From positions 1 to 35,504 of the IMG/VR virus record IMGVR_UViG_3300021387_000081: DNA of 35,504 nt; one strand, 5' to 3'. Within the stretch, counting starts at the first letter, position 1; each line of letters opens with the position of its first letter. Shown piece after piece: positions 14,881-34,882 of this stretch. This DNA comes from a virus. Both the position numbers and the translations under genes were made by a program. Under the pieces are notes generated by a model, which saw only the letters and a list, made by a program, of their open reading frames with translations, was not told the DNA's origin and did not search any database.

Positions 14881-14909
14881 TTGACAGAAAGCAAAATCTG
14901 GTATATAAT
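14881..14909 (+). promoter_or_regulatory. Perfect consensus sigma-70 promoter on the plus strand
   Basis: TTGACA, a 17-nt spacer and TATAAT with no mismatch. It points against the minus-strand operon. Confidence 0.6.
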
Positions 14910-19938: not shown

Positions 19939-20082
19939 ATAATCAAGCTATTGAACAGGGTACAGTTATCCTATAGTTTGAGAGCAGTGTGATTCTATAG
20001 GGTAATATAAATATTCTTAGTCTTATTATACGACTTTTTATACATTATGTCAATAGCTGAGTTTTAAAAAGGAGGTGATAAA

Positions 20083-27170: not shown

Positions 27171-27363
27171 CACTGACATGCTCTACATGGCGAGCCTGCA
27201 AAAGAGGCTCGATGCATCAGAAGAGGAGAACCGGAAGCTGAAGGAGCTGCTGCGTGACATTCAGCCGCTCATAACCGGGGCGCTGTATGTGAACTACAAG
27301 CAGACCAAGGCTGCGGATGAGGTCTACGACAGGATAGTGAAGGCGCTGGGAGAGAAGCGATGA
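27163..27363 (+). CDS. Hypothetical protein
   Basis: 66 aa, overlapping its neighbours. Confidence 0.5.
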   Translation: MSDTDMLYMASLQKRLDASEEENRKLKELLRDIQPLITGALYVNYKQTKAADEVYDRIVKALGEKR

Positions 27364-27788
27364 CGGAGACTGAACTGACCACAAGGCACTGGCTGAACCG
27401 TGCCTTCTACGCGGACAAGAAAGCAAAGGCACTGGAAATGCTCGTCAGGCAGTGCAGAGAACGCGCTGAGGGGCTTTCACGATGCTCGGAGGGCAATGAC
27501 AAGGGCAGGAGCGACGGCGCCGAAAACGGCACGGAAAACGCTCTCATGAAGCTTGCGGAAATGGAGAGAAAAGCGGATGCCCAGAGAGTTGAGGCAGTGA
27601 ACGTCTTGGCAGAGATACAGACGATCATCTCCGGACTTCACGACGATGACCTTGAAGCTGTTCTGATACACAGATATATTCTGTTTCACACTATCGAGCA
27701 GACCGCGGAGATAATGAACTATCATCCGAACACTGTGAAGAGCAAGGTCAAGAAAGCAATACAGAAACTATGTACCGAAATGTCTTGA
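27360..27788 (+). CDS. Putative late-gene transcriptional regulator (sigma-70 region-4-like HTH; RinA/ArpU/DUF1492-type position)
   Basis: The C-terminus LIHRYILFHTIEQTAEIMNYHPNTVKSKVKKAIQKL resembles sigma region 4. It is the last gene before the packaging module. Confidence 0.55.
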   Translation: MTETELTTRHWLNRAFYADKKAKALEMLVRQCRERAEGLSRCSEGNDKGRSDGAENGTENALMKLAEMERKADAQRVEAVNVLAEIQTIISGLHDDDLEAVLIHRYILFHTIEQTAEIMNYHPNTVKSKVKKAIQKLCTEMS

Positions 27789-27941: not shown

Positions 27942-28016
27942 GGCAGGTTGGAACAGCGGCAGTTCGCAAGGCTCATAACCTTGAGGTCGTGGGTTCGAGT
28001 CCCACACCTGCAACCA
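27942..28016 (+). tRNA. tRNA with CAT anticodon (Met, or Ile2 if lysidine-modified)
   Basis: Manual cloverleaf: acceptor ggcaggt/acctgca, D stem gaac/gttc, anticodon stem caagg/ccttg with loop ctCATaa, T arm gtggg-ttcgagt-cccac, and an encoded ACCA. Positions 1 and 72 are G and A (unpaired). Confidence 0.8.
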
Positions 28017-28660: not shown

Positions 28661-28743
28661 AATATCCCCCCGGAGGTCAGATTTTTTTTGAAATGCTCCG
28701 GACATCCACCGACGCCCCCCTCTGAAAATAAAATATTCCCTAA

Positions 28744-29214
28744 ATGAAAGGACGTGATACTGTGGCGAGACCGGCAATGAGTGCGAAAACTACGTCAAAG
28801 CACCTTACGAAGGCGGAGGCTGAGGCAAAGTCCTCGACCGAAGAACTGCTCAGAGGCAGGGCAGACAGGCTGCGTCCGCCTAAGTATCTGACGACTGCGC
28901 AGAAGAAGATCTTCAAGTTCATCGTCCGGGAACTGGAGGGCAGCGGCATCCTTGGCAATCTGGACATCTATGTGCTGACCGAGTGCTGCATCGCGCTTGA
29001 CAGGATGCAGGAGATAGAGAGCAGGATCAATCAGGATCCGGTGCAGCTCAGCAATGACAAGCTGCTGCAATCGAAGGACAGATATACGAAGTCCTTCTTC
29101 CGCTGCTGCAATGAGCTGTGCCTGAGTCCTCAGAGCAGGGCGAAAATGGGCAACCTCAACTTGCAGGCGAAGGAAGAGAATCCGCTGCTGAAGGTGCTGA
29201 GCGATGATGAATAA
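28744..29214 (+). CDS. terS: Terminase small subunit (P27 family)
   Basis: Contains P.YLT..QKKIFKFIV.EL...GILGNLD...L...C.ALDR, typical of P27-family small subunits. Confidence 0.8.
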   Translation: MKGRDTVARPAMSAKTTSKHLTKAEAEAKSSTEELLRGRADRLRPPKYLTTAQKKIFKFIVRELEGSGILGNLDIYVLTECCIALDRMQEIESRINQDPVQLSNDKLLQSKDRYTKSFFRCCNELCLSPQSRAKMGNLNLQAKEENPLLKVLSDDE

Positions 29215-29839
29215 AGACTGGTTCATAGATTACGCGGAACATGCGGTCAGAGTGATAGACATCGAGACACGCTGGTATGAGCTCAGAGGCTGGATAACAA
29301 AAAACGGAAGGCATATCCTGATTGGCGATGATGAGGGTGGCAGCTCCACCAGCGGAGCAGGCAGAAAAGCTGCCAAAAAGGTTGACAAAGCCGGGGAAAG
29401 TGGTATAATTGAAGAAAAGACAGGAGAAACGGCGGGAACTGATGTGCATAAAGTTGGAAAGATAGATGTTGAAAAGTTTGAAACTATTGCAAATGGAAGA
29501 ATTCTCACCGACGAGGTGATCATAACAGATAATCGGATCGAACACATTATTGAGCGAAGAGGTCAGAAGTTTTATGACGATTTTAAAGGCTATTTTCCTG
29601 AAATAATAGAAGCACCCGACTATATATTCAAAGATGATATGGACAATACAGCTATTGTGTCTAAATCATATAGCCATAAGGGAAAAACAGTAAACTTAGT
29701 TCTTAGGCTCGTAGTTGAAGGGGAAAACCCAAGCTATAAGAATTCTATACTAACTGCAATTGGTGAGAACGAGAAAAGATTTGCTCAACGTTTACGCAAT
29801 AACGTTCCTGTGTATAAAAAAGTTGACAAATCAGAATAA
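29204..29839 (+). CDS. Type-2 leader, Gly/Ser linker and PBECR-like (barnase-EndoU-colicin E5/D-RelE fold) nuclease domain
   Basis: 211 aa. The leader is WFIDYAEHAVRVIDIETRWYELRGWITKNGRHILIG. The C-terminus ITDNRIEHIIERRG...PEIIEAPDYIFKD..NTAIVSK...VNLVLRL resembles phage PBECR domains. The gene sits between terS and terL. Confidence 0.7.
   Translation: MMNKDWFIDYAEHAVRVIDIETRWYELRGWITKNGRHILIGDDEGGSSTSGAGRKAAKKVDKAGESGIIEEKTGETAGTDVHKVGKIDVEKFETIANGRILTDEVIITDNRIEHIIERRGQKFYDDFKGYFPEIIEAPDYIFKDDMDNTAIVSKSYSHKGKTVNLVLRLVVEGENPSYKNSILTAIGENEKRFAQRLRNNVPVYKKVDKSE
29219..29325 (+). repeat. 107-nt direct repeat (leader coding), partner at 31762-31868
   Basis: 9 mismatches by eye. Five fall in the codons for ELRG and all five are synonymous. 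Confidence 0.9.
29382..29409 (+). promoter_or_regulatory. Extended -10 consensus promoter inside the linker codons (KKVDKAGESGII)
   Basis: TTGACA at 29382-29387, a 16-nt spacer ending in tgg, and TATAAT at 29404-29409. Confidence 0.55.
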
Positions 29840-29851
29840 ATGTGATATAAT
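29823..29851 (+). promoter_or_regulatory. Extended -10 consensus promoter at the 3' end of the PBECR-like ORF (KKVDKSE-stop)
   Basis: TTGACA at 29823-29828, a 17-nt spacer ending in tga, and TATAAT at 29846-29851. Confidence 0.6.
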
Positions 29852-29857
29852 GAAGGT

Positions 29858-29980
29858 AAGATAAGAGTAGGTTATCAGAGGTGGTAAATTTCGTAGCGAC
29901 CACACGCCGCTGGTAACGACAGGGAGTAATCCCGAGAGATGCAGGAGAATGCTACGCCTGCCTGATAACCACTCTTTCCA
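29858..29980 (+). ncRNA. Candidate structured RNA between terS-side cassette and terL
   Basis: A 15-bp long-range helix (29863-29878 with 29962-29976, one bulged A) encloses hairpins 29881-29903, 29922-29933 (GUAA loop) and 29941-29961. Two hairpin loops carry complementary hexamers cgtagc and gctacg. Confidence 0.45.
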
Positions 29981-29981
29981 G

Positions 29982-30014
29982 ACCGCTTCGAGAAATCGGA
30001 GCGGTTTTCTTATA
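29982..30014 (+). terminator. Intrinsic terminator T4 (family GCGGTTTTCTTAT)
   Basis: accgcttcga/tcggagcggt stem with GAAA loop, followed by ttttcttata. Confidence 0.7.
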
Positions 30015-30041
30015 CCCGGACGCAGAAAGGAGCTGACAGCA

Positions 30042-31742
30042 ATTGACATAGTGAAGAACAGCAGAGCTTATAAATATGCTCTGTGGTGTACCGAGCCGGA
30101 CAATCACTATGTCGGGCGGTACATAAAGAAGCAGGCGGTGATCTGGCTGGAGATAGCGGACGGTCAGAGCGATGAAGCATATGTCTGTGAGAAGCGCTGG
30201 AAGAAGATAACGAAGCTGCTGAAGATCATCATGCACCCTGACCTCGGACATTCGATGTATGAGGGACTTGAGGACTACGCAGTTTTATTCATATATGCCT
30301 TGTTCTGTACAAAGCGCCGGAGCGACAGTCTCCGGTACTACGAGACCGGGCTTTTAGAGATCGCGAGGAAGAACTTCAAGACGTTCACCTCAGCGGTCAT
30401 TTTTATTATCGGACTGCTGACAGAGCCGAAGTTCAGCCGCTTTTTCAGTGTGGCACCGGATCTGAAACTCTCCAGTGAATTGCAGGTGGCTATCAAGAAG
30501 ATAATCAAGTCGAGCCCCTGTCTGGCGGACGAGAAGGTGTTCAAGCTGCTGCGGAAGGAGATACGCTGCAAGCTGACTGACTCTGAGTATACTCCTCTTG
30601 CTTACTTACAGGACAAGATGGACGGAAAGCTTGCAAATATGTTTCTTGCTGACGAGTGCGGAGCAATGGACAACTATCCCATAGAAGCCATGCGATCCTC
30701 ACAGATCGTGCTGAGGGAGAAGCTTGGCATCATCATCTCTACCCAGTACCCCAATGACAACAATGCTATGCTGGAAGAGGTTGACAACGCCAAAAAGATC
30801 CTTGACGGACTACGGCATGGAAGGGTGTTCGCACTGCTCTATGAGCCGGATGATGAGTTCAAGACCGGCGATGCGTGGATGACATCGGACACAGCGCTGT
30901 ATCAGGCTAATCCGGTGGCGTACGCCCATGAATACGTCATGGATGACCTGAGGGCGAAGCGTCAGGCTGCCATAGATTATGAGAACAAGCGGGAGAACTT
31001 CCTGTGCAAGCACATGAACATCCTCTACAAAGGACTCGGAGTTGAGGGATTTGTCGAGATAACGAAGGTAAGACTGTGTAAAGTTCCGGCGGATGCTGAG
31101 TTCTGGAGGGGCAGACAGGTATATATCGGGCTTGACCTCTCTCAGACCGATGACAATACCTCGGTCGCAATGGTGACATATGATGCGGATGAGGATATGA
31201 TATACGTCAAGGTCTGGGGATTCATCCCGGCTGACCGCATCGACGAGAAATCCCAGCGCGAAAAGGTGGATTACAAGAAGCTCATAGCCGCAGGAGAATG
31301 CTTTGCCTGCGGTGATGAGGTCATTGACTACGGCTTTGTGGAGCGGTTCATACAGTCGCTGCCGGAGCAGTACGGCGTTGAGATAGTTCAGCTGGGCTTT
31401 GACCGGTACAATGCTATCTCCACAGTACAGAAGCTGGAAAGCGGAGAGGATCCGATCGAGTGCGTTGAGATTAGACAGCACAGCAGCGTCTTACACAGAC
31501 CAACGAAGCTGCTGAAAGAACGTATCCTGAGCCGTAAGCTGCGGTATGAGGAGAATCATATGCTGGAGATCAACTTCCAGAACGCCAGATGCACCGAGGA
31601 CACGAATCTGAACAAGTATGTCAACAAGAGAAAGTCCGCCGGCAAGGTGGATATGGTGGTATCTGTCATAAACGCGCTGTATCTCTTGCAGGTGAATGTG
31701 CTTGACAGCATGGAGCAGGGGTTCGGGTGCCAGATCATATGA
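30042..31742 (+). CDS. terL: Terminase large subunit (start uncertain: ATT 30042 or GTG 30051)
   Basis: A Terminase_1-like sequence over about 560 aa. The tracked 5' extension contains terminator T4. SD aaaggag lies 9 nt before ATT and 18 nt before GTG. Confidence 0.85.
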   Translation: MDIVKNSRAYKYALWCTEPDNHYVGRYIKKQAVIWLEIADGQSDEAYVCEKRWKKITKLLKIIMHPDLGHSMYEGLEDYAVLFIYALFCTKRRSDSLRYYETGLLEIARKNFKTFTSAVIFIIGLLTEPKFSRFFSVAPDLKLSSELQVAIKKIIKSSPCLADEKVFKLLRKEIRCKLTDSEYTPLAYLQDKMDGKLANMFLADECGAMDNYPIEAMRSSQIVLREKLGIIISTQYPNDNNAMLEEVDNAKKILDGLRHGRVFALLYEPDDEFKTGDAWMTSDTALYQANPVAYAHEYVMDDLRAKRQAAIDYENKRENFLCKHMNILYKGLGVEGFVEITKVRLCKVPADAEFWRGRQVYIGLDLSQTDDNTSVAMVTYDADEDMIYVKVWGFIPADRIDEKSQREKVDYKKLIAAGECFACGDEVIDYGFVERFIQSLPEQYGVEIVQLGFDRYNAISTVQKLESGEDPIECVEIRQHSSVLHRPTKLLKERILSRKLRYEENHMLEINFQNARCTEDTNLNKYVNKRKSAGKVDMVVSVINALYLLQVNVLDSMEQGFGCQII

Positions 31743-31749
31743 GGTGGAT

Positions 31750-32385
31750 ATGGATAATAATTGGTTCATGGACTACGCGGAACATGCGGTCAGAGTGATA
31801 GACATCGAGACACACTGGTATGAATTACGCGGCTGGATAACAAAAAACGGAAGGCATATACTGATTGGTGAAGAAGGCAGTTCTTCCGGCGGAGCAGGCA
31901 AGAGTATTGACAAATCTGCGAAAAGTGGTATAATAAAATCAGGAGCGGTGAGTGGTGCATTATCTCCTGCCAGCAAAGAAGCACAGGCTCATGCTGAGCA
32001 ATACTATGAGTCTGTTCGTAAAATGAAAACAGATGTAAAAAACATCTCAAATAATACCGGCTTTAGTGAAAGCGACATTTTGCAAATAAAGAATCATGTA
32101 TTCATAGAAGAACATGATTTGGGCGGAGACGTCCCAGAGCGTTTTTATCCCAATTATGCTATGGCTCAATCATGGCAAAGGCTTATTGAGGGTAAAAACA
32201 TCCAGAAGCACGATATTACACTGCTTCATCACGAAAAAATGGAAAGCGATTTGATGAAGAAGGGCTTATCTCAGATAAAAGCTCATAGTATATCTGAGAA
32301 AAAGTTTAATTATGCTAAAGAAAGTAGGGAGTATTATGCTGAGATTAATAAACATAGCGATAGGACTAAAAACAATCGAAGCTGA
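31750..32385 (+). CDS. Type-2 leader, Gly/Ser linker and an unrecognised C-terminal domain
   Basis: 211 aa. The leader is WFMDYAEHAVRVIDIETHWYELRGWITKNGRHILIG. The C-terminal region ...IKNHVFIEEHDLGG..PERFYPNYAMAQSWQRLIEGKNIQKHDITLLHHEKMESDL has no homology to the other cassettes. ATG 31750 follows gaggtgg. Confidence 0.7.
   Translation: MDNNWFMDYAEHAVRVIDIETHWYELRGWITKNGRHILIGEEGSSSGGAGKSIDKSAKSGIIKSGAVSGALSPASKEAQAHAEQYYESVRKMKTDVKNISNNTGFSESDILQIKNHVFIEEHDLGGDVPERFYPNYAMAQSWQRLIEGKNIQKHDITLLHHEKMESDLMKKGLSQIKAHSISEKKFNYAKESREYYAEINKHSDRTKNNRS
31762..31868 (+). repeat. 107-nt direct repeat (leader coding), partner at 29219-29325
   Basis: See the partner repeat. A 40-nt block tacgcggaacatgcggtcagagtgatagacatcgagacac is identical in both. 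Confidence 0.9.
31907..31934 (+). promoter_or_regulatory. Extended -10 consensus promoter inside the linker codons (KSIDKSAKSGII)
   Basis: TTGACA at 31907-31912, a 16-nt spacer ending in tgg, and TATAAT at 31929-31934. Confidence 0.55.
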
Positions 32386-32584
32386 TTATATCCCTGAAAA
32401 TAGTGATAAGTCAGCACATATAACGCTTGATATAAAAACAAGGGATTATACTGCCGAGAGTATCAAAGAATTCGGTTCAATGTATGGCAGAATGGCTGCA
32501 AACGGGCTTATAAGGACCCTTGATGAGCTAAAAAGCGGCAAGAGGAAAGAAATTCCCGAAGAAAGACTTGTTATGTGGTATTAA
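32336..32584 (+). CDS. 82-aa protein overlapping the 3' end of the upstream variable domain, candidate cognate partner
   Basis: ATG 32336 lies 5 nt after agggag and overlaps the upstream gene by 50 nt. AT-rich. Confidence 0.5.
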   Translation: MLRLINIAIGLKTIEADYIPENSDKSAHITLDIKTRDYTAESIKEFGSMYGRMAANGLIRTLDELKSGKRKEIPEERLVMWY

Positions 32585-32604
32585 TACCTAAGGTGGGAGG
32601 ATTA

Positions 32605-32721
32605 ATGAAAGTTAAGTACACTGGTAAAACAAGTTTTCTTGTTCTGACAAACGGAAAGATATATGATGTCATTTCTGTCGAAAAAGGTTGGTACAGAATC
32701 AAAGACGACAAAGGTGCTTAA
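32605..32721 (+). CDS. 38-aa short paralogue of the ORF at 34721-34882
   Basis: MKVKYTGKTSFLVLTNGKIYDVISVEKGWYRIKDDKGA compared with MKVKYIGKQYLDTAFEKDKIYEVISVEKGWYRIMTELDEDYLFPPECFEIVEE. SD ggtgggagg. Confidence 0.45.
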   Translation: MKVKYTGKTSFLVLTNGKIYDVISVEKGWYRIKDDKGA

Positions 32722-33047: not shown

Positions 33048-34724
33048 GTGGTCAAAATAGGACTTTTCAGACGAAAAAAGCGGCAGGAAATAAGGGCGGA
33101 TACAGCTCAGAACGGCGAAAACACCATACTGACGTTCTTCGGACTGACCGGAGAACTTACGCGGGAGGCTGCGCTGAGCATACCGACGGTATCAGCCTGC
33201 ATCGGCAAGATAGGGGAGACCATATCGCGGCTGCCGGTGAAGCTTTACAGGAAGGATGAAGAGCAGGTCACGGAGATATCCGACGATGACCGGCTGAAGC
33301 TGCTCAACGGCAGCACCGGCGACACTCTCAGCACTGTTGACATGTGGAAAGCAGCGGTGGAGGACTACTACCTCGGGCGCGGAGCATGGATATACGTCAA
33401 CAGCGACGGTCTGAGTGTCCGGAGCCTGCACTATGTGGACAGCCGGAACGTGAGCATCATGTGCAACAATGATCCGATATTCAAGGCATTCAGAGTGCAG
33501 ATAAACGCGCAGAACTATTATGATTTCCAGTTTATCAAGCTGCTGAGGAAGACGCGGGACGGCTACACGAACATCCCGTTGCAGGAGGAGGCATCCTCGG
33601 TACTTTCGGCAGCGTGGAACGCTCTGAAGCTGGAGAACATGATGAACTCCAACGGCGGCTGCAAGCCGGGCTTCCTGAAAGCGAAGAACAGGCTCTCGGA
33701 TGCGGCGATAGCAGCGATCAGGGAAGGTTACCAGAAGGTCTATGACAACGAGCAGAAGCGTGACAAGATAATCGTGCTGAATGACGGTGTTGACTTCGAG
33801 GCGATATCCTCAACGGCTGCGGAGCTCCAGATGAACGAGAATAAGAAGACCAACAGCATCGAGATCTGCAAGCTGTTCGGCTTCCCTCATACGGTCATTG
33901 ACGGCGGAGCATCCGATGACGACAACAAGAAGTTCATTTCGGCGGTCATATCGCTCCTGAATCAGATCGAGACAGAGCTGGACAACGTTCTCCTGCTTGA
34001 ATCCGAGAAGGAGCAGGGGTATTACTGGGCGTTTGATACCAAGGAACTGACACGCGGCAGTCTTCTTGAACGTATGCAGGCTTATGAGATAGCCAAGCGG
34101 AACAACATCCTGCAGGTGGATGAGATCCGCCGGGAAGAGGACTATGAGCCTCTCGGCTTCAACTATATCACCCTCGGTCTTGCTGATGTTCTCCTTGATC
34201 CTGTTACTATGGAGGTCTATACCCCCAATACCGGACAGACAAAGAACCTTGTTACCGGTGAGGAACGGGCACTTACAGAGCTGAGGTACCGCCAATATAT
34301 CCAAGGTCCTGACGGAAAGATGCAGGGGAGCAGAAGCGTAGGCGGAGGAAGAGCGACGAAAAAGGTTGACAAATCCAAAAAAACTGATATAATAAAATTA
34401 GAGGATATTGAGGTCGGAAAGTCACTTGGAGCAAAGGCTAAAAACTATGACATTATGGATTTGGAAACGGGTGAACATTTTAACCTTGTTGAAAGGACCA
34501 GTTTGCAAGATGTTGAGGTCTTTGCTGGAAAGGGCGTTAAATCTGAGTTCCGAAAAGCTGATAAATATGCTAAAAAATACGGCGGTAAAGCCAAAGATTG
34601 GCAACACGCTAAAGGCACAGGAACTGTAGATTATTACGGTGAAGGGCGAAAAGCTGAATTACACTGGGCACAGTGTGAAGGTATAGGAAAACACGATTTT
34701 TTCATAAAGAGGTGGTTGGAATGA
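33048..34724 (+). CDS. Portal protein (HK97 family) with a roughly 130-aa C-terminal leader-linker-toxin-like extension (start uncertain: GTG 33048 or ATA 33057)
   Basis: The portal core includes ALSIPTVSACIGKIGETISRLPVKLY. After ELRYRQYIQGPDGKMQGSRSVGGG comes an AT-rich domain VGKSLGAKAKNYDIMDLETGEHF...WQHAKGTGTVDYYGEGRKAELHWAQ...FFIKRWLE, which resembles C-terminal toxin domains seen on MuF/gp7 head proteins. Confidence 0.85.
   Translation: MVKIGLFRRKKRQEIRADTAQNGENTILTFFGLTGELTREAALSIPTVSACIGKIGETISRLPVKLYRKDEEQVTEISDDDRLKLLNGSTGDTLSTVDMWKAAVEDYYLGRGAWIYVNSDGLSVRSLHYVDSRNVSIMCNNDPIFKAFRVQINAQNYYDFQFIKLLRKTRDGYTNIPLQEEASSVLSAAWNALKLENMMNSNGGCKPGFLKAKNRLSDAAIAAIREGYQKVYDNEQKRDKIIVLNDGVDFEAISSTAAELQMNENKKTNSIEICKLFGFPHTVIDGGASDDDNKKFISAVISLLNQIETELDNVLLLESEKEQGYYWAFDTKELTRGSLLERMQAYEIAKRNNILQVDEIRREEDYEPLGFNYITLGLADVLLDPVTMEVYTPNTGQTKNLVTGEERALTELRYRQYIQGPDGKMQGSRSVGGGRATKKVDKSKKTDIIKLEDIEVGKSLGAKAKNYDIMDLETGEHFNLVERTSLQDVEVFAGKGVKSEFRKADKYAKKYGGKAKDWQHAKGTGTVDYYGEGRKAELHWAQCEGIGKHDFFIKRWLE
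34366..34393 (+). promoter_or_regulatory. Extended -10 consensus promoter inside the portal linker codons (KKVDKSKKTDII)
   Basis: TTGACA at 34366-34371, a 16-nt spacer ending in tga, and TATAAT at 34388-34393. Confidence 0.55.
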
Positions 34725-34882
34725 AAGTCAAATATATAGGTAAACAGTATTTAGATACAGCTTTTGAAAAAGACAAAATATATGAAGTTATTTCGGTTGA
34801 AAAAGGCTGGTATAGGATAATGACTGAGCTTGACGAAGATTATCTTTTTCCACCTGAATGCTTTGAAATCGTAGAAGAATAA
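34721..34882 (+). CDS. 53-aa small protein, candidate cognate partner, paralogue of 32605-32721
   Basis: ATGA overlap with the portal stop. SD agaggtgg. Confidence 0.55.
   Translation: MKVKYIGKQYLDTAFEKDKIYEVISVEKGWYRIMTELDEDYLFPPECFEIVEE

What the first reader, a model, noticed from the sequence alone, without database searches (positions are those of the whole stretch)
29852..30014. Promoter-to-terminator unit encoding a roughly 155-nt highly structured RNA between terS and terL
A consensus promoter (29823-29851) is followed by a non-coding stretch and terminator T4. By hand-folding, 29863-29878 pairs with 29962-29976 (15 bp, one bulged A) and closes a multi-helix domain. That domain contains hairpin gtggt/accac (29881-29903), hairpin ggga-GUAA-tccc (29922-29933) and hairpin gcagg/cctgc (29941-29961). 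The loops of the first and third hairpins contain perfectly complementary hexamers, cgtagc (29892-29897) and gctacg (29951-29956), so a kissing-loop or pseudoknot, either intra- or intermolecular, is possible. Possible roles are a leader or riboregulator of terL, an RNA partner or antidote of the adjacent PBECR-like RNase, or very speculatively a packaging-associated RNA, since loop-loop multimerisation is the principle of phi29 pRNA. I do not recognise it as a known Rfam family.
Basis: partly seen in the sequence, partly recalled or inferred. Interest (0 to 1): 0.7.

Follow-up and report, generated by a model that had tools for sequence, protein, structure and literature searches.

The report
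Skipping-rope RNA next to nuclease gene
This is a real, separately transcribed structured RNA of about 150 nt that belongs to a catalogued family of unknown function (skipping-rope RNA). It always travels with the predicted RNase gene just upstream, so it is most likely that enzyme's RNA antidote and has nothing to do with DNA packaging.

Summary

The RNA is not unknown. Rfam model RF02924 (skipping-rope RNA, Weinberg 2017, function unknown) matches 29871-29969 at 51.1 bits against a cut-off of 36.7.

In 72 distinct relatives, 98.8% of pair cells are paired. The loop-loop hexamer was not part of my search model, yet it covaries at 4 of 6 positions, so the pseudoknot is real.

The RNA follows the PBECR2 nuclease gene, not terL:
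- 66 of 67 testable loci chosen by the PBECR2 protein alone carry the RNA 5-46 nt downstream on the same strand. The same holds for 7 of 7 PBECR3 loci.
- None of these loci has a terL, terS or HNH relative nearby.
- Some cassettes sit in ordinary chromosomal sites.
- Divergent gene+RNA cassettes occur in tandem.
- Intact orphan RNAs exist, but intact genes without the RNA were not found.
- The RNA promoter (68 of 74) and terminator (64 of 76) are conserved.

Best reading (inferred, about 0.5): an RNA antidote of the PBECR2 RNase, in the place where a protein immunity gene normally sits.

It is a new member of a known RNA family and gives a testable functional lead.

The parts
29204..29839 (+). 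PBECR2-domain protein gene (211 aa). The domain covers residues ~81-211. The first ~45 residues are a module shared with ORF 31753-32385.
   Evidence: Pfam PF18810 PBECR2, 35.6 bits against a cut-off of 27.1. It is 100% identical to a Ruminococcus sp. MAG protein. The conserved residues H34, R38, R39, K99, S101, T104 and R116 of the domain are kept. N-terminal similarity to the paralogue is shown.
29382..29409 (+). Internal promoter TTGACA-16-TATAAT in the linker before the PBECR2 domain. A GTG at 29444 matches the start of the 131-aa solo homologues.
   Evidence: 12 of 12 matches. A promoter at the same distance from the domain start scores at least 10 of 12 in 34 of 52 solo and 11 of 13 fused relatives, against 7.5% of random stretches. 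The solo homologues start MHKVGKID.
29823..29851 (+). Promoter of the RNA, TTGACA-17-TATAAT. The -35 hexamer lies in the last codons (V-D-K) of the PBECR2 gene. The predicted start of transcription is about 29858.
   Evidence: 12 of 12 matches with TG. A promoter scoring at least 10 of 12 is present at a fixed distance in 68 of 74 distinct relatives.
29863..29976 (+). Whole structured domain closed by the extended P1 (29863-29878 with 29962-29976, one bulged A at 29869).
   Evidence: Sequence, fold, and extension statistics.
29871..29969 (+). Match to Rfam RF02924 skipping-rope RNA, model positions 1-80 of 80.
   Evidence: 51.1 bits against a gathering score of 36.7, E = 1.7e-9. My own model R1 scores it at 80.6 bits.
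29881..29903 (+). Hairpin H1: GUGGU / ACCAC with a 13-nt loop, AAAUUUCGUAGCG.
   Evidence: 99.4% paired across relatives, with 2 of 5 pairs changing on both sides.
29892..29897 (+). 5' strand of the pseudoknot (CGUAGC, in the H1 loop).
   Evidence: Pairs with 29951-29956. Covarying variants are CGCAGC/GCUGCG, CGUGGC/GCCACG, CGUCCC/GGGACG, CGUACG/CGUACG, CGUACA/UGUACG and CGCACG/CGUGCG (viral loci L018/L111).
29905..29936 (+). H2 region. It comprises the outer C29905:G29936 pair of the Rfam model, a 3-bp GCC/GGU stem (29906-29908 with 29912-29914), and an inserted hairpin GGGA-GUAA-UCCC (29922-29933) that is typical of the PBECR2-linked subtype.
   Evidence: Rfam alignment. In relatives the inserted hairpin varies in length and sequence but keeps its pairing (GGAA/UUCC, GGG/CCC, AGGG/CCCU, GAGA/UCUC, and longer forms).
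29941..29961 (+). Hairpin H3: GCAGG / CCUGC with the loop AGAAUGCUACG. The 3' strand of the pseudoknot is 29951-29956.
   Evidence: 100% paired across relatives, with 3 of 5 pairs changing on both sides.
29981..30013 (+). Intrinsic terminator: 11-bp stem, GAAA loop and U-rich tail. It ends both the RNA and any read-through transcript from the PBECR2 gene.
   Evidence: Fold. A terminator-like hairpin with a U run follows the RNA in 64 of 76 relatives. Rho-independent terminators follow this motif class in Weinberg 2017 (PMC5737381).

Best explanation
The element is a skipping-rope RNA (Rfam RF02924). This identification is shown.

Predicted from conserved signals:
- The RNA is made from its own near-consensus sigma-70 promoter, which is embedded in the last codons of the PBECR2 gene.
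- It ends at an intrinsic terminator and is about 150 nt long.
- It is also the 3' end of any transcript that starts at the promoter upstream of the PBECR2 domain. The cell should therefore always hold at least as much RNA as nuclease mRNA.

Fold, supported by covariation: a four-way junction (P1, H1, H2, H3) locked by a 6-bp pseudoknot between the H1 and H3 loops.

Shown by comparison: the PBECR2 gene and the RNA form one mobile two-part cassette. The cassette occurs alone in chromosomes, in tandem arrays, or as the 3' end of phage MuF-type virion protein genes.

[quoted passage not shown] It would be an RNA antitoxin or immunity factor sitting exactly where polymorphic-toxin loci carry a small immunity gene.
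For: Identity
- RF02924 hit above the gathering score. Relatives of all subtypes also match RF02924.

Structure
- Covariation including the pseudoknot, which was not in the model used to align the sequences.

Obligate, oriented linkage
- Loci chosen by the protein alone carry the RNA 5-46 nt (median 33) after the stop codon on the same strand: 66 of 67 testable PBECR2 loci and 7 of 7 testable PBECR3 loci.
- In the sample chosen by the RNA, 16 of 23 testable loci have a PBECR2 or PBECR3 gene directly upstream. None of 96 RNA-less control loci has such a gene.
- L007 is a blind confirmation: the gene was found first, and the RNA was then found behind it.

Asymmetry expected of an antidote
- No intact gene lacks the RNA.
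- Intact RNAs without a gene exist: L005, L021, L027, L031, L053, L071 and L076, plus second copies in L002, L159 and L202.

Cassette behaviour
- L148 and L128 each hold three divergent gene+RNA cassettes in tandem; L124 and L156 hold two. Each protein clade comes with its own RNA type and pseudoknot sequence.
- The cassette is autonomous. It sits between rplS and a GTPase/RNase HII operon, or between a symporter gene and a pyruvate-formate-lyase-like gene, with no phage genes nearby.

Expression logic
- RNA promoter conserved in 68 of 74 relatives, terminator in 64 of 76, and a second promoter before the nuclease domain in 45 of 65.

No room for a protein immunity gene
- The RNA and terminator fill the gap to terL.
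- RNA lengths differ by 1-2 nt among close relatives (96-102 nt), which excludes a coding reading.
- Within the window, two other promoter-linked C-terminal cassettes are followed by homologous small ORFs. The PBECR2 cassette has the RNA in that position.

Precedent
- The abiF RNA motif comes from the same 2017 survey. It was shown experimentally to be a type III-like RNA antitoxin of a prophage AbiF protein (PMC12373285).
Against: - Nothing here shows binding, toxicity or neutralisation.
- The RNase activity of PBECR2 is itself only a prediction (Pfam and Iyer 2017, PMC5512222). My AlphaFold model (pLDDT 86) has no significant match to any solved structure. It matches only predicted phage MuF-C, minor capsid and polyvalent proteins.
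- The RNA is much better conserved than the protein: about 90-93% nucleotide identity in the core where the proteins are 40-60% identical. That is unusual for a toxin/immunity pair under diversifying selection. It would suit an RNA constrained by something else.
- 'The protein is never without the RNA' is also what an obligate cofactor model predicts.
- Correlation between protein clade and RNA type could be plain co-inheritance of neighbouring DNA.
- Weinberg 2017 describes the associated gene as lying on either side and in either orientation. That is looser than what I see in these subfamilies.
- PADLOC and NCBIfam have no model for the protein.
Confidence: 0.5

Rival explanations
1. Obligate partner, not inhibitor. 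The skipping-rope RNA is a cofactor, scaffold or dedicated substrate of PBECR2. The two form a ribonucleoprotein whose activity needs the RNA. In phages with MuF-PBECR2 fusions the complex might be loaded into the capsid.
For: - The same strict 1:1 oriented linkage.
- The RNA is far more conserved than the protein, as expected if the RNA is the functional core.
- Weinberg 2017 judged that the motif's features suggest a 'sophisticated biochemical function'.
- Relatives of the protein are fused to virion proteins.
Against: - Intact, high-scoring orphan RNAs exist without a nearby gene. They make less sense for a cofactor.
- The strong separate promoter gives RNA in excess of the protein.
- The cassette thrives in non-phage chromosomal sites.
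- No free single-stranded guide-like segment varies among relatives. The variable hexamers are paired to each other.
Confidence: 0.25
2. A regulatory RNA acting through nucleic-acid contacts. It could be a 3'-UTR element that controls stability or termination of the PBECR2 mRNA, or a trans-acting base-pairing sRNA (type I-like antitoxin).
For: - It lies in the 3' UTR of the gene and shares its terminator.
- It has its own promoter, as many sRNAs do.
Against: - There is no complementarity beyond shuffled controls to the translation start regions of PBECR2 (either start) or of terL.
- Conserved unpaired nucleotides, a four-way junction and a pseudoknot are features of a folded RNA that binds a protein or ligand, not of an antisense RNA.
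- A mere stabiliser would not need its own near-consensus promoter in 68 of 74 loci.
Confidence: 0.08
3. One reading: a leader or riboregulator of terL, or a packaging RNA that multimerises through loop-loop contacts like phi29 pRNA.
For: - Its position between terS and terL in this window, 30 nt before the terL ribosome-binding site.
- The complementary loop hexamers could in principle pair between molecules.
Against: - No terL, terS or HNH relative lies within 2.5 kb in any of 69 related loci.
- Downstream genes are unrelated. Some are on the other strand or are housekeeping genes.
- The P1 3' strand does not overlap the terminator stem, so no switch is apparent.
- There is no match to pRNA or any other family at E up to 10.
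- The junction geometry (0-nt and 1-nt linkers) favours an intramolecular pseudoknot.
Confidence: 0.02

Closest known systems
Skipping-rope RNA motif (Rfam RF02924; Weinberg et al. 2017, PMC5737381)
   Same: - Full-length match above the gathering score.
- Same four-way junction, and the same conserved GAGG, AAA and GAGAUGC nucleotides.
- A terminator at the 3' end.
- Association with one particular neighbouring protein gene.
- Prophage context.
   Different: - The window belongs to a sub-class (40-60 bits) with an extra hairpin inserted in the H2 region, a longer 6-bp pseudoknot and an extended P1.
- The Rfam consensus is closer to the PBECR3-linked sub-class (70-80 bits).
- The function of the family is unpublished as far as the held literature shows.
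Type III toxin-antitoxin systems (ToxIN, CptIN, TenpIN)
   Same: - A protein endoRNase (here only predicted) paired with a structured, pseudoknotted RNA encoded next to it.
- Constitutive promoter and an intrinsic terminator.
- Found on mobile elements and prophages.
   Different: - The RNA lies downstream of the toxin gene, not upstream.
- It is a single ~100-nt unit with its own promoter, not a tandem array of 34-36-nt repeats processed by the toxin.
- The protein is PBECR2, not ToxN, CptN or TenpN.
abiF RNA motif / RCd22 with AbiF (C. difficile prophage; PMC12373285)
   Same: - A structured RNA found by the same 2017 comparative survey through its link to one protein family.
- It was later shown to neutralise that toxic protein by direct binding, in cis and in trans.
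- Prophage-borne.
   Different: - Different RNA fold and a different protein family (Abi_2, related to Cas13 ancestors).
- That RNA lies upstream of the gene and also lowers its transcription.
Polymorphic toxin / immunity cassettes, especially MuF toxins of temperate phages (Jamet 2017, PMC5576092; Iyer 2017, PMC5512222)
   Same: - A variable C-terminal nuclease domain attached to virion proteins (MuF, portal).
- The antidote sits immediately downstream.
- Tandem and orphan modules occur.
- The same domain also exists as a solo gene.
   Different: - The downstream partner here is an RNA, not a small protein.
- In the window the carrier is an ~80-residue N-terminal extension (a ~45-residue conserved module plus linker), not MuF.
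tRNA (cloverleaf)
   Same: By inference from the Rfam structure line:
- Four helices joined by linkers of 2, 1, 4 and 0 nt, as in tRNA (2, 1, 4-5, 0).
- The loops of the first and third hairpins contact each other, as the D and T loops do.
- The partner protein belongs to a fold that includes anticodon nucleases (own knowledge: colicins D and E5).
   Different: - No tRNA call by ARAGORN and no tRNA-model match even at E up to 10.
- H2 carries a 3-4-nt loop, not a 7-nt anticodon loop.
- No CCA end.
- The resemblance is topological only.
phi29 pRNA
   Same: Phage-encoded, with complementary loops that could pair.
   Different: - No sequence or structure match.
- Not linked to packaging genes in relatives.
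- Present in non-phage chromosomal sites.

Membership tests
Rfam RF02924 skipping-rope RNA | Covariance-model score at or above the curated gathering score, over the full model | tested here: met
   51.1 bits against 36.7, model positions 1-80 of 80, E = 1.7e-9.
Rfam RF02924 skipping-rope RNA | P1 closing three hairpins, with conserved GAGG, AAA and GAGAUGC nucleotides | tested here: met
   Alignment to the consensus. These positions are invariant in 20 relatives. The helices are 98-100% paired with compensatory changes.
Rfam RF02924 skipping-rope RNA | Rho-independent terminator directly after the motif (Weinberg 2017) | tested here: met
   Terminator at 29981-30013. Present in 64 of 76 relatives.
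Rfam RF02924 skipping-rope RNA | [quoted passage not shown] | tested here: met
   A PBECR2 or PBECR3 gene lies directly upstream. Whether this is the domain the authors meant could not be checked.
Type III toxin-antitoxin system | Toxin is an endoribonuclease of the ToxN/CptN/TenpN families | tested here: not met
   The protein matches only Pfam PBECR2/PBECR3 and has no PADLOC model.
Type III toxin-antitoxin system | Antitoxin is an array of short direct repeats upstream of the toxin gene, separated from it by a terminator | tested here: not met
   A single ~100-nt unit lies downstream of the gene, with its own promoter.
Type III toxin-antitoxin system | RNA binds and inhibits the toxin protein directly | not testable with these tools
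   Needs co-expression, a gel-shift assay or a structure of the complex.
Polymorphic toxin / immunity cassette (MuF toxin type) | Variable C-terminal toxin domain on a conserved N-terminal carrier; the same domain is found on different carriers | tested here: met
   The PBECR2 domain is solo (125-200 aa) or at the C-terminus of 460-560-aa proteins carrying Phage_Mu_F or Phage_min_cap2 domains. In the window it follows an N-terminal module shared with ORF 31753-32385.
Polymorphic toxin / immunity cassette (MuF toxin type) | [quoted passage not shown] | tested here: not met
   The RNA and its terminator occupy that position. Length differences of 1-2 nt among relatives exclude coding.
Polymorphic toxin / immunity cassette (MuF toxin type) | Tandem arrays and orphan antidote modules | tested here: met
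   Tandem arrays in L148, L128, L124 and L156. Orphan RNAs in L002, L159, L202, L027 and others.
BECR-fold RNase (PBECR2) | [quoted passage not shown] | tested here: met
   35.6 bits against 27.1. H34 lies in helix 29-39, and S101 and T104 lie in strand 101-108 of the model; all are invariant. The criterion is from PMC5512222.
BECR-fold RNase (PBECR2) | Structural similarity to solved BECR RNases (colicin D/E5, barnase, RelE, EndoU) | tested here: inconclusive
   Foldseek against the PDB gave a best E of 0.014 with TM below 0.35, and no BECR member among the top hits. The sequence profile against the PDB found nothing. Against BFVD it matches MuF-C, minor capsid and polyvalent proteins.
phi29-type packaging RNA | Conserved linkage to the packaging motor genes, and a match to the pRNA family | tested here: not met
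   No terL or terS near the RNA in 69 relatives. No other Rfam match at E up to 10.
tRNA / tRNA-like structure | Detected by tRNA finders or by the tRNA covariance model | tested here: not met
   ARAGORN finds only tRNA-Met at 27942-28016. The Rfam tRNA model is silent at E up to 10. Only the junction topology is alike.

The most novel reading that the evidence does not exclude
Skipping-rope RNAs are tRNA-shaped pseudo-substrates: uncleavable decoys. They have cloverleaf-like linkers of 2, 1, 4 and 0 nt, a contact between the first and third loops, and a short loop in place of the anticodon loop. They would occupy the active site of PBECR2/PBECR3 anticodon-nuclease-like toxins.

If so, they would be the first RNA immunity factors of a polymorphic-toxin system, and a fourth, unrelated architecture of RNA antitoxin. 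This would also explain why the RNA is far more conserved than its protein partner: it copies a conserved host RNA.
Probability: 0.12. Interest if true: 0.85.

Novelty: new member of a known kind. Interest (0 to 1): 0.5.

Why it matters
- Skipping-rope RNA has been an orphan motif since 2017. It was flagged then as complex enough to do something 'biochemically challenging' (PMC5737381).
- PBECR nucleases are widespread predicted phage effectors with no known target and no known antidote (PMC5512222).
- Here the two form one obligate, oriented, self-promoted cassette that behaves genomically like a toxin-antidote module. That turns both open questions into one simple experiment: express the 131-residue domain with and without the ~150-nt RNA.
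- If the RNA is the antidote, polymorphic-toxin and MuF-toxin surveys that look only for small immunity ORFs are missing a class of RNA immunity.
- Practically, automatic annotation is likely to miss the RNA. It may also start terL at the ATG at 29949, which lies inside the RNA.

Tried and rejected
- BLASTN of 28700-30100 against 50,697 phage records found no match. No cultured relative is available.
- A single-protein locus search in viral contigs gave only one partial locus. A mixed PBECR2+PBECR3 alignment was too divergent for the locus finder, so I used a PBECR2-only alignment.
- The supplement of Weinberg 2017 that names the associated protein is not held.
- The DNA pattern scan was mostly noise: 97 of 120 hits were chance. 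I used those loci as a control set.
- Antisense pairing of the RNA with the PBECR2 or terL start regions is no better than shuffles. The type I-like model was dropped.
- Structure search of the PBECR2 model against the PDB gave nothing significant, so the tRNase idea gains no structural support.
- The tRNA covariance model and ARAGORN find no similarity, so the tRNA likeness is topological only.
- A coding reading of the region (minus-strand ORF 29831-30049, or plus-strand ATG 29949) was rejected. Relatives differ by 1-2 nt in length and change in base-paired fashion.
- A riboswitch reading was rejected. Downstream genes are unrelated and sometimes on the opposite strand, and P1 does not compete with the terminator stem.
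- PADLOC and NCBIfam give no hit for the protein.
Full report
**1. What is there**

The elements are:
- a perfect TTGACA-17-TATAAT promoter at 29823-29851;
- a long closing helix, 29863-29878 with 29962-29976, with one bulged A;
- hairpins at 29881-29903, 29922-29933 and 29941-29961;
- complementary hexamers CGUAGC (29892-29897) and GCUACG (29951-29956) in the loops of the first and third hairpins;
- an 11-bp terminator hairpin (29981-30006) followed by UUCUUAU.

The 163-nt stretch folds 5.3 standard deviations better than dinucleotide shuffles. With transcription starting about 7 nt after the -10 hexamer (near 29858) and ending in the U tract, the RNA would be about 150 nt. The simple terminator scanner did not list the terminator. 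It is seen in the fold and in my own scan.

**2. It is a known RNA family**

Rfam model RF02924, 'skipping-rope RNA', matches 29871-29969 over its full length at 51.1 bits. The curated cut-off is 36.7, and E = 1.7e-9 for the whole window. No other family matches the region, even at E up to 10.

The family was described by Weinberg et al. 2017 (PMC5737381). They describe it as follows:
- a highly conserved motif followed by a terminator;
- rarely in 5' UTRs, so not a likely riboswitch;
- no self-cleavage in their tests;
- function unknown.

The supplement that names the protein is not held. A full-text search found no later functional study.

**3. The structure is supported, pseudoknot included**

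I collected relatives in two independent ways (section 4) and aligned 78 of them (72 distinct) to a covariance model. The model contained only P1, H1 and H3.

Results on that alignment:
- 98.8% of pair cells are standard pairs.
- 16 of 27 pairs show changes on both sides.
- None of 500 shuffles reached the observed values.
- Sliding the partners by 1-3 columns drops pairing to 26-58%.

The loop-loop helix was not in the model, so it is an unbiased test. It is 97.6% paired, and 4 of its 6 pairs change on both sides. The variants seen in this alignment are CGUAGC/GCUACG (the majority), CGCAGC/GCUGCG, CGUGGC/GCCACG, CGUCCC/GGGACG, CGUACG/CGUACG and CGUACA/UGUACG. A further variant, CGCACG/CGUGCG, occurs in viral loci L018 and L111.

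Other structural points:
- The inserted hairpin at 29922-29933 varies in length and sequence but keeps its pairing. It is the hallmark of the sub-class to which the window belongs.
- That sub-class scores 40-60 bits with Rfam. A shorter sub-class scores 70-80 bits.
- Extra P1 pairs beyond the Rfam model are frequent but of variable length.
- RNA lengths of 96-102 nt (up to 110) among close relatives rule out a coding reading of either strand.

**4. The RNA belongs to the gene upstream, not to terL**

[quoted passage not shown] It is identical to a protein of a Ruminococcus sp. metagenome-assembled genome.

*Sampling by RNA.* A loose DNA pattern pulled 120 viral loci, and 23 of them had the full set of helices. 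The covariance model confirmed those hits and added one more, L007.
- Of the 23 testable RNA-bearing loci, 16 have a PBECR2 or PBECR3 gene ending just upstream on the same strand.
- None of the 96 RNA-less control loci has such a gene.
- L007 is a blind confirmation. The pattern hit there was a chance match. A PBECR3 gene then turned up at 351-785 on the minus strand, and the model found an RNA at 252-329 on the same strand.

*Sampling by protein.* Peptide patterns from inside the PBECR2 domain retrieved 61 genome loci and 8 viral loci. Most are Clostridia metagenome-assembled genomes; Fusobacterium and Phascolarctobacterium are also represented.
- Two loci end at the gene and cannot be tested.
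- 66 of the remaining 67 have a skipping-rope RNA on the same strand, starting 5-46 nt (median 33) after the stop codon.
- The exception, L181, is a decayed cassette in which both the gene and the RNA are truncated.
- For PBECR3, 7 of 7 testable loci have the RNA.

*No link to packaging genes.* None of the 69 loci has a relative of the window's terL, terS, HNH gene, portal, or the paralogue at 31696, within 2.5 kb. The terL-leader and packaging-RNA ideas therefore fail. In this window the cassette simply sits between terS and terL.

**5. How the cassette behaves**

(a) *It is autonomous.* One solo PBECR2 gene with its RNA lies between rplS and a GTPase/RNase HII operon. Another lies between a solute symporter gene and a pyruvate-formate-lyase-like gene. 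Neither has phage genes nearby.

(b) *The domain is modular.* It is a solo protein of 125-200 residues, or the C-terminus of 460-560-residue proteins whose relatives carry Phage_Mu_F or Phage_min_cap2 domains. This matches the MuF and portal fusions that Iyer et al. described for PBECR domains (PMC5512222).

(c) *It forms arrays.*
- L148 and L128 each carry three divergent gene+RNA cassettes in tandem. L124 and L156 carry two.
- Protein clade and RNA type go together. Sixty clade-2 proteins come with GUGGU...ACCAC plus CGUAGC-type RNAs. Clade-1 proteins come with GUGGA...UCCAC RNAs and other pseudoknot sequences.
- Co-resident RNAs always differ in their pseudoknot sequence.

(d) *There are orphan RNAs, but no orphan genes.*
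- Intact RNAs occur without a PBECR gene beside a tail-completion gene, in a conjugative element and elsewhere.
- RNAs also occur as second copies behind or in front of a cassette. Those in L002 and L202 are confirmed as RF02924. L159 also has one. L189's has a degenerate pseudoknot, and L176's is only a partial match.

(e) *The expression signals are conserved.*
- A promoter matching at least 10 of 12 consensus positions precedes the RNA at a fixed distance in 68 of 74 distinct loci. Its -35 hexamer is read as the last codons of the gene.
- A terminator follows the RNA in 64 of 76.
- A second promoter lies 28-36 nt before the start of the PBECR2 domain in 45 of 65 loci. That count includes 11 of 13 loci where the domain is fused to a long protein. 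The background rate in random stretches is 7.5%.
- In the window this second promoter is at 29382-29409. The GTG at 29444 corresponds to the start of the 131-residue solo homologues.

**6. Mechanism**

*Shown:* family membership, the fold, the obligate oriented linkage, and the conserved transcription signals.

*Inferred:* the RNA neutralises the PBECR2 protein. Four arguments support this.
1. The genomic asymmetry: the gene is never without the RNA, while the RNA is sometimes without the gene.
2. The RNA has its own strong promoter and also lies on the nuclease transcript. The antidote would therefore be at least as abundant as the toxin mRNA.
3. The position is the one where polymorphic-toxin loci, MuF toxins included, carry a small immunity ORF (PMC5576092).
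4. There is an internal comparison in this window. Two other C-terminal domains, in ORF 31753-32385 and in the portal gene, are preceded by the same kind of in-frame perfect promoter. Both are followed by homologous small ORFs. The PBECR2 cassette has the RNA in that position instead.

A precedent exists. The abiF motif, from the same 2017 survey, is a type III-like RNA antitoxin of a prophage AbiF protein (PMC12373285).

*Against the antidote model:*
- There are no experimental data.
- PBECR2 RNase activity is itself only predicted. The AlphaFold model (pLDDT 86) shows helices followed by a four-stranded sheet. The invariant His34 lies in the first long helix and Ser101/Thr104 in the last core strand, as Iyer et al. 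describe. Even so, the model matches no solved structure and matches only predicted phage MuF-C and polyvalent proteins.
- The RNA core stays about 90-93% identical where the proteins are only 40-60% identical. This is atypical for an immunity factor. It leaves room for the cofactor rival, or for an RNA that copies a conserved cellular RNA.

There is no antisense complementarity to the start regions of the PBECR2 or terL genes.

**7. A speculative refinement**

The Rfam structure line gives junction linkers of 2, 1, 4 and 0 nt and a contact between the first and third hairpin loops. This is the connectivity of a tRNA cloverleaf with its D-loop/T-loop contact.

From my own knowledge, colicins D and E5 are anticodon nucleases and belong to the fold that gave PBECR its name. 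A tRNA-shaped, uncleavable decoy would explain the high conservation of the RNA.

This is topology only. ARAGORN and the tRNA covariance model see nothing.

**8. Verdict**

The statement that it is not a known family is wrong.
- It is a new member (a sub-class with an inserted hairpin) of a known RNA family of unknown function.
- The interest lies in the testable hypothesis that links two uncharacterised entities, not in the discovery of a new RNA.

Noticed in passing
window 29382-29409, 31907-31934, 34366-34393 (also 29823-29851): There are four perfect TTGACA-N16/17-TATAAT promoters on the + strand of the packaging module. The whole window has six, against 0.03 expected. Three of them lie in frame inside genes, in a linker just before a C-terminal domain: PBECR2, the C-terminal half of ORF 31753-32385, and a ~110-residue extension of the portal. 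The -35 hexamer is read as V/I-D-K and the -10 hexamer as ..I-I. The linker peptide motif 'KVDK..SGII' and the promoter are therefore the same DNA.
   Followed up: partly
window 29204-29340 and 31753-31890: ORF 29204-29839 and ORF 31696/31753-32385 flank terL. They share an N-terminal module, DWF(I/M)DYAEHAVRVIDIET(R/H)WYELRGWITKNGRHILIG, with 59% identity over 75 residues, but have unrelated C-terminal domains. This looks like a common carrier or address module for different cargo domains. It has no Pfam or PHROG match.
   Followed up: partly
window 32575-32721 and 34712-34882: Two homologous small ORFs (MKVKY.GK...KIY[DE]VISVEKGWYRI; 64% identity, E = 6e-12) follow the other two promoter-linked C-terminal domains. 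The second one overlaps the portal stop codon. They are candidate protein immunity genes, in the position that the RNA occupies behind PBECR2.
   Followed up: partly
window 29949-30051: The mechanical terL ORF starts at the ATG at 29949, which lies in the H3 loop of the RNA, upstream of the terminator. That start is an artefact. The real ribosome-binding site is AAAGGAG at 30026-30032. The only in-frame codon at a normal distance is ATT at 30042, and the GTG at 30051 is 18 nt away. terL may use a rare start codon, and gene callers may swallow part of the RNA.
   Followed up: no
window 27942-28016: A tRNA-Met gene (anticodon CAT) lies just upstream of the HNH-terS-PBECR2 block. Two other RNA-bearing loci also have tRNA genes close by (L019, L053). 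It is unknown whether phage tRNAs relate to a tRNA-directed nuclease.
   Followed up: no
L148 1878-3585; L128 1174-3024; L124 1841-3025; L156 1494-2618: These loci hold tandem arrays of two or three divergent PBECR2 genes. Each gene has its own promoter, skipping-rope RNA and terminator. The co-resident RNAs always carry different pseudoknot sequences.
   Followed up: yes
L202-L204 5892-6520; L199-L201 6001-6658: Solo PBECR2+RNA cassettes are inserted in housekeeping neighbourhoods with no phage genes: between rplS and a GTPase/RNase HII operon, and between a symporter gene and a pyruvate-formate-lyase-like gene. L202 also has an extra orphan RNA in front of the gene.
   Followed up: yes
window 14881-14909 (+) and 20025-20053 (-): Two further perfect consensus promoters lie elsewhere in the window. 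I did not examine them.
   Followed up: no
window 27360-27788: This ORF has Sigma-70 region 4 and DUF1492 matches at or just below the Pfam cut-offs. It is a likely late-gene activator just upstream of the packaging module. The RNA terminator at 29981-30013 would interrupt a late transcript running from terS to terL unless it is read through.
   Followed up: no
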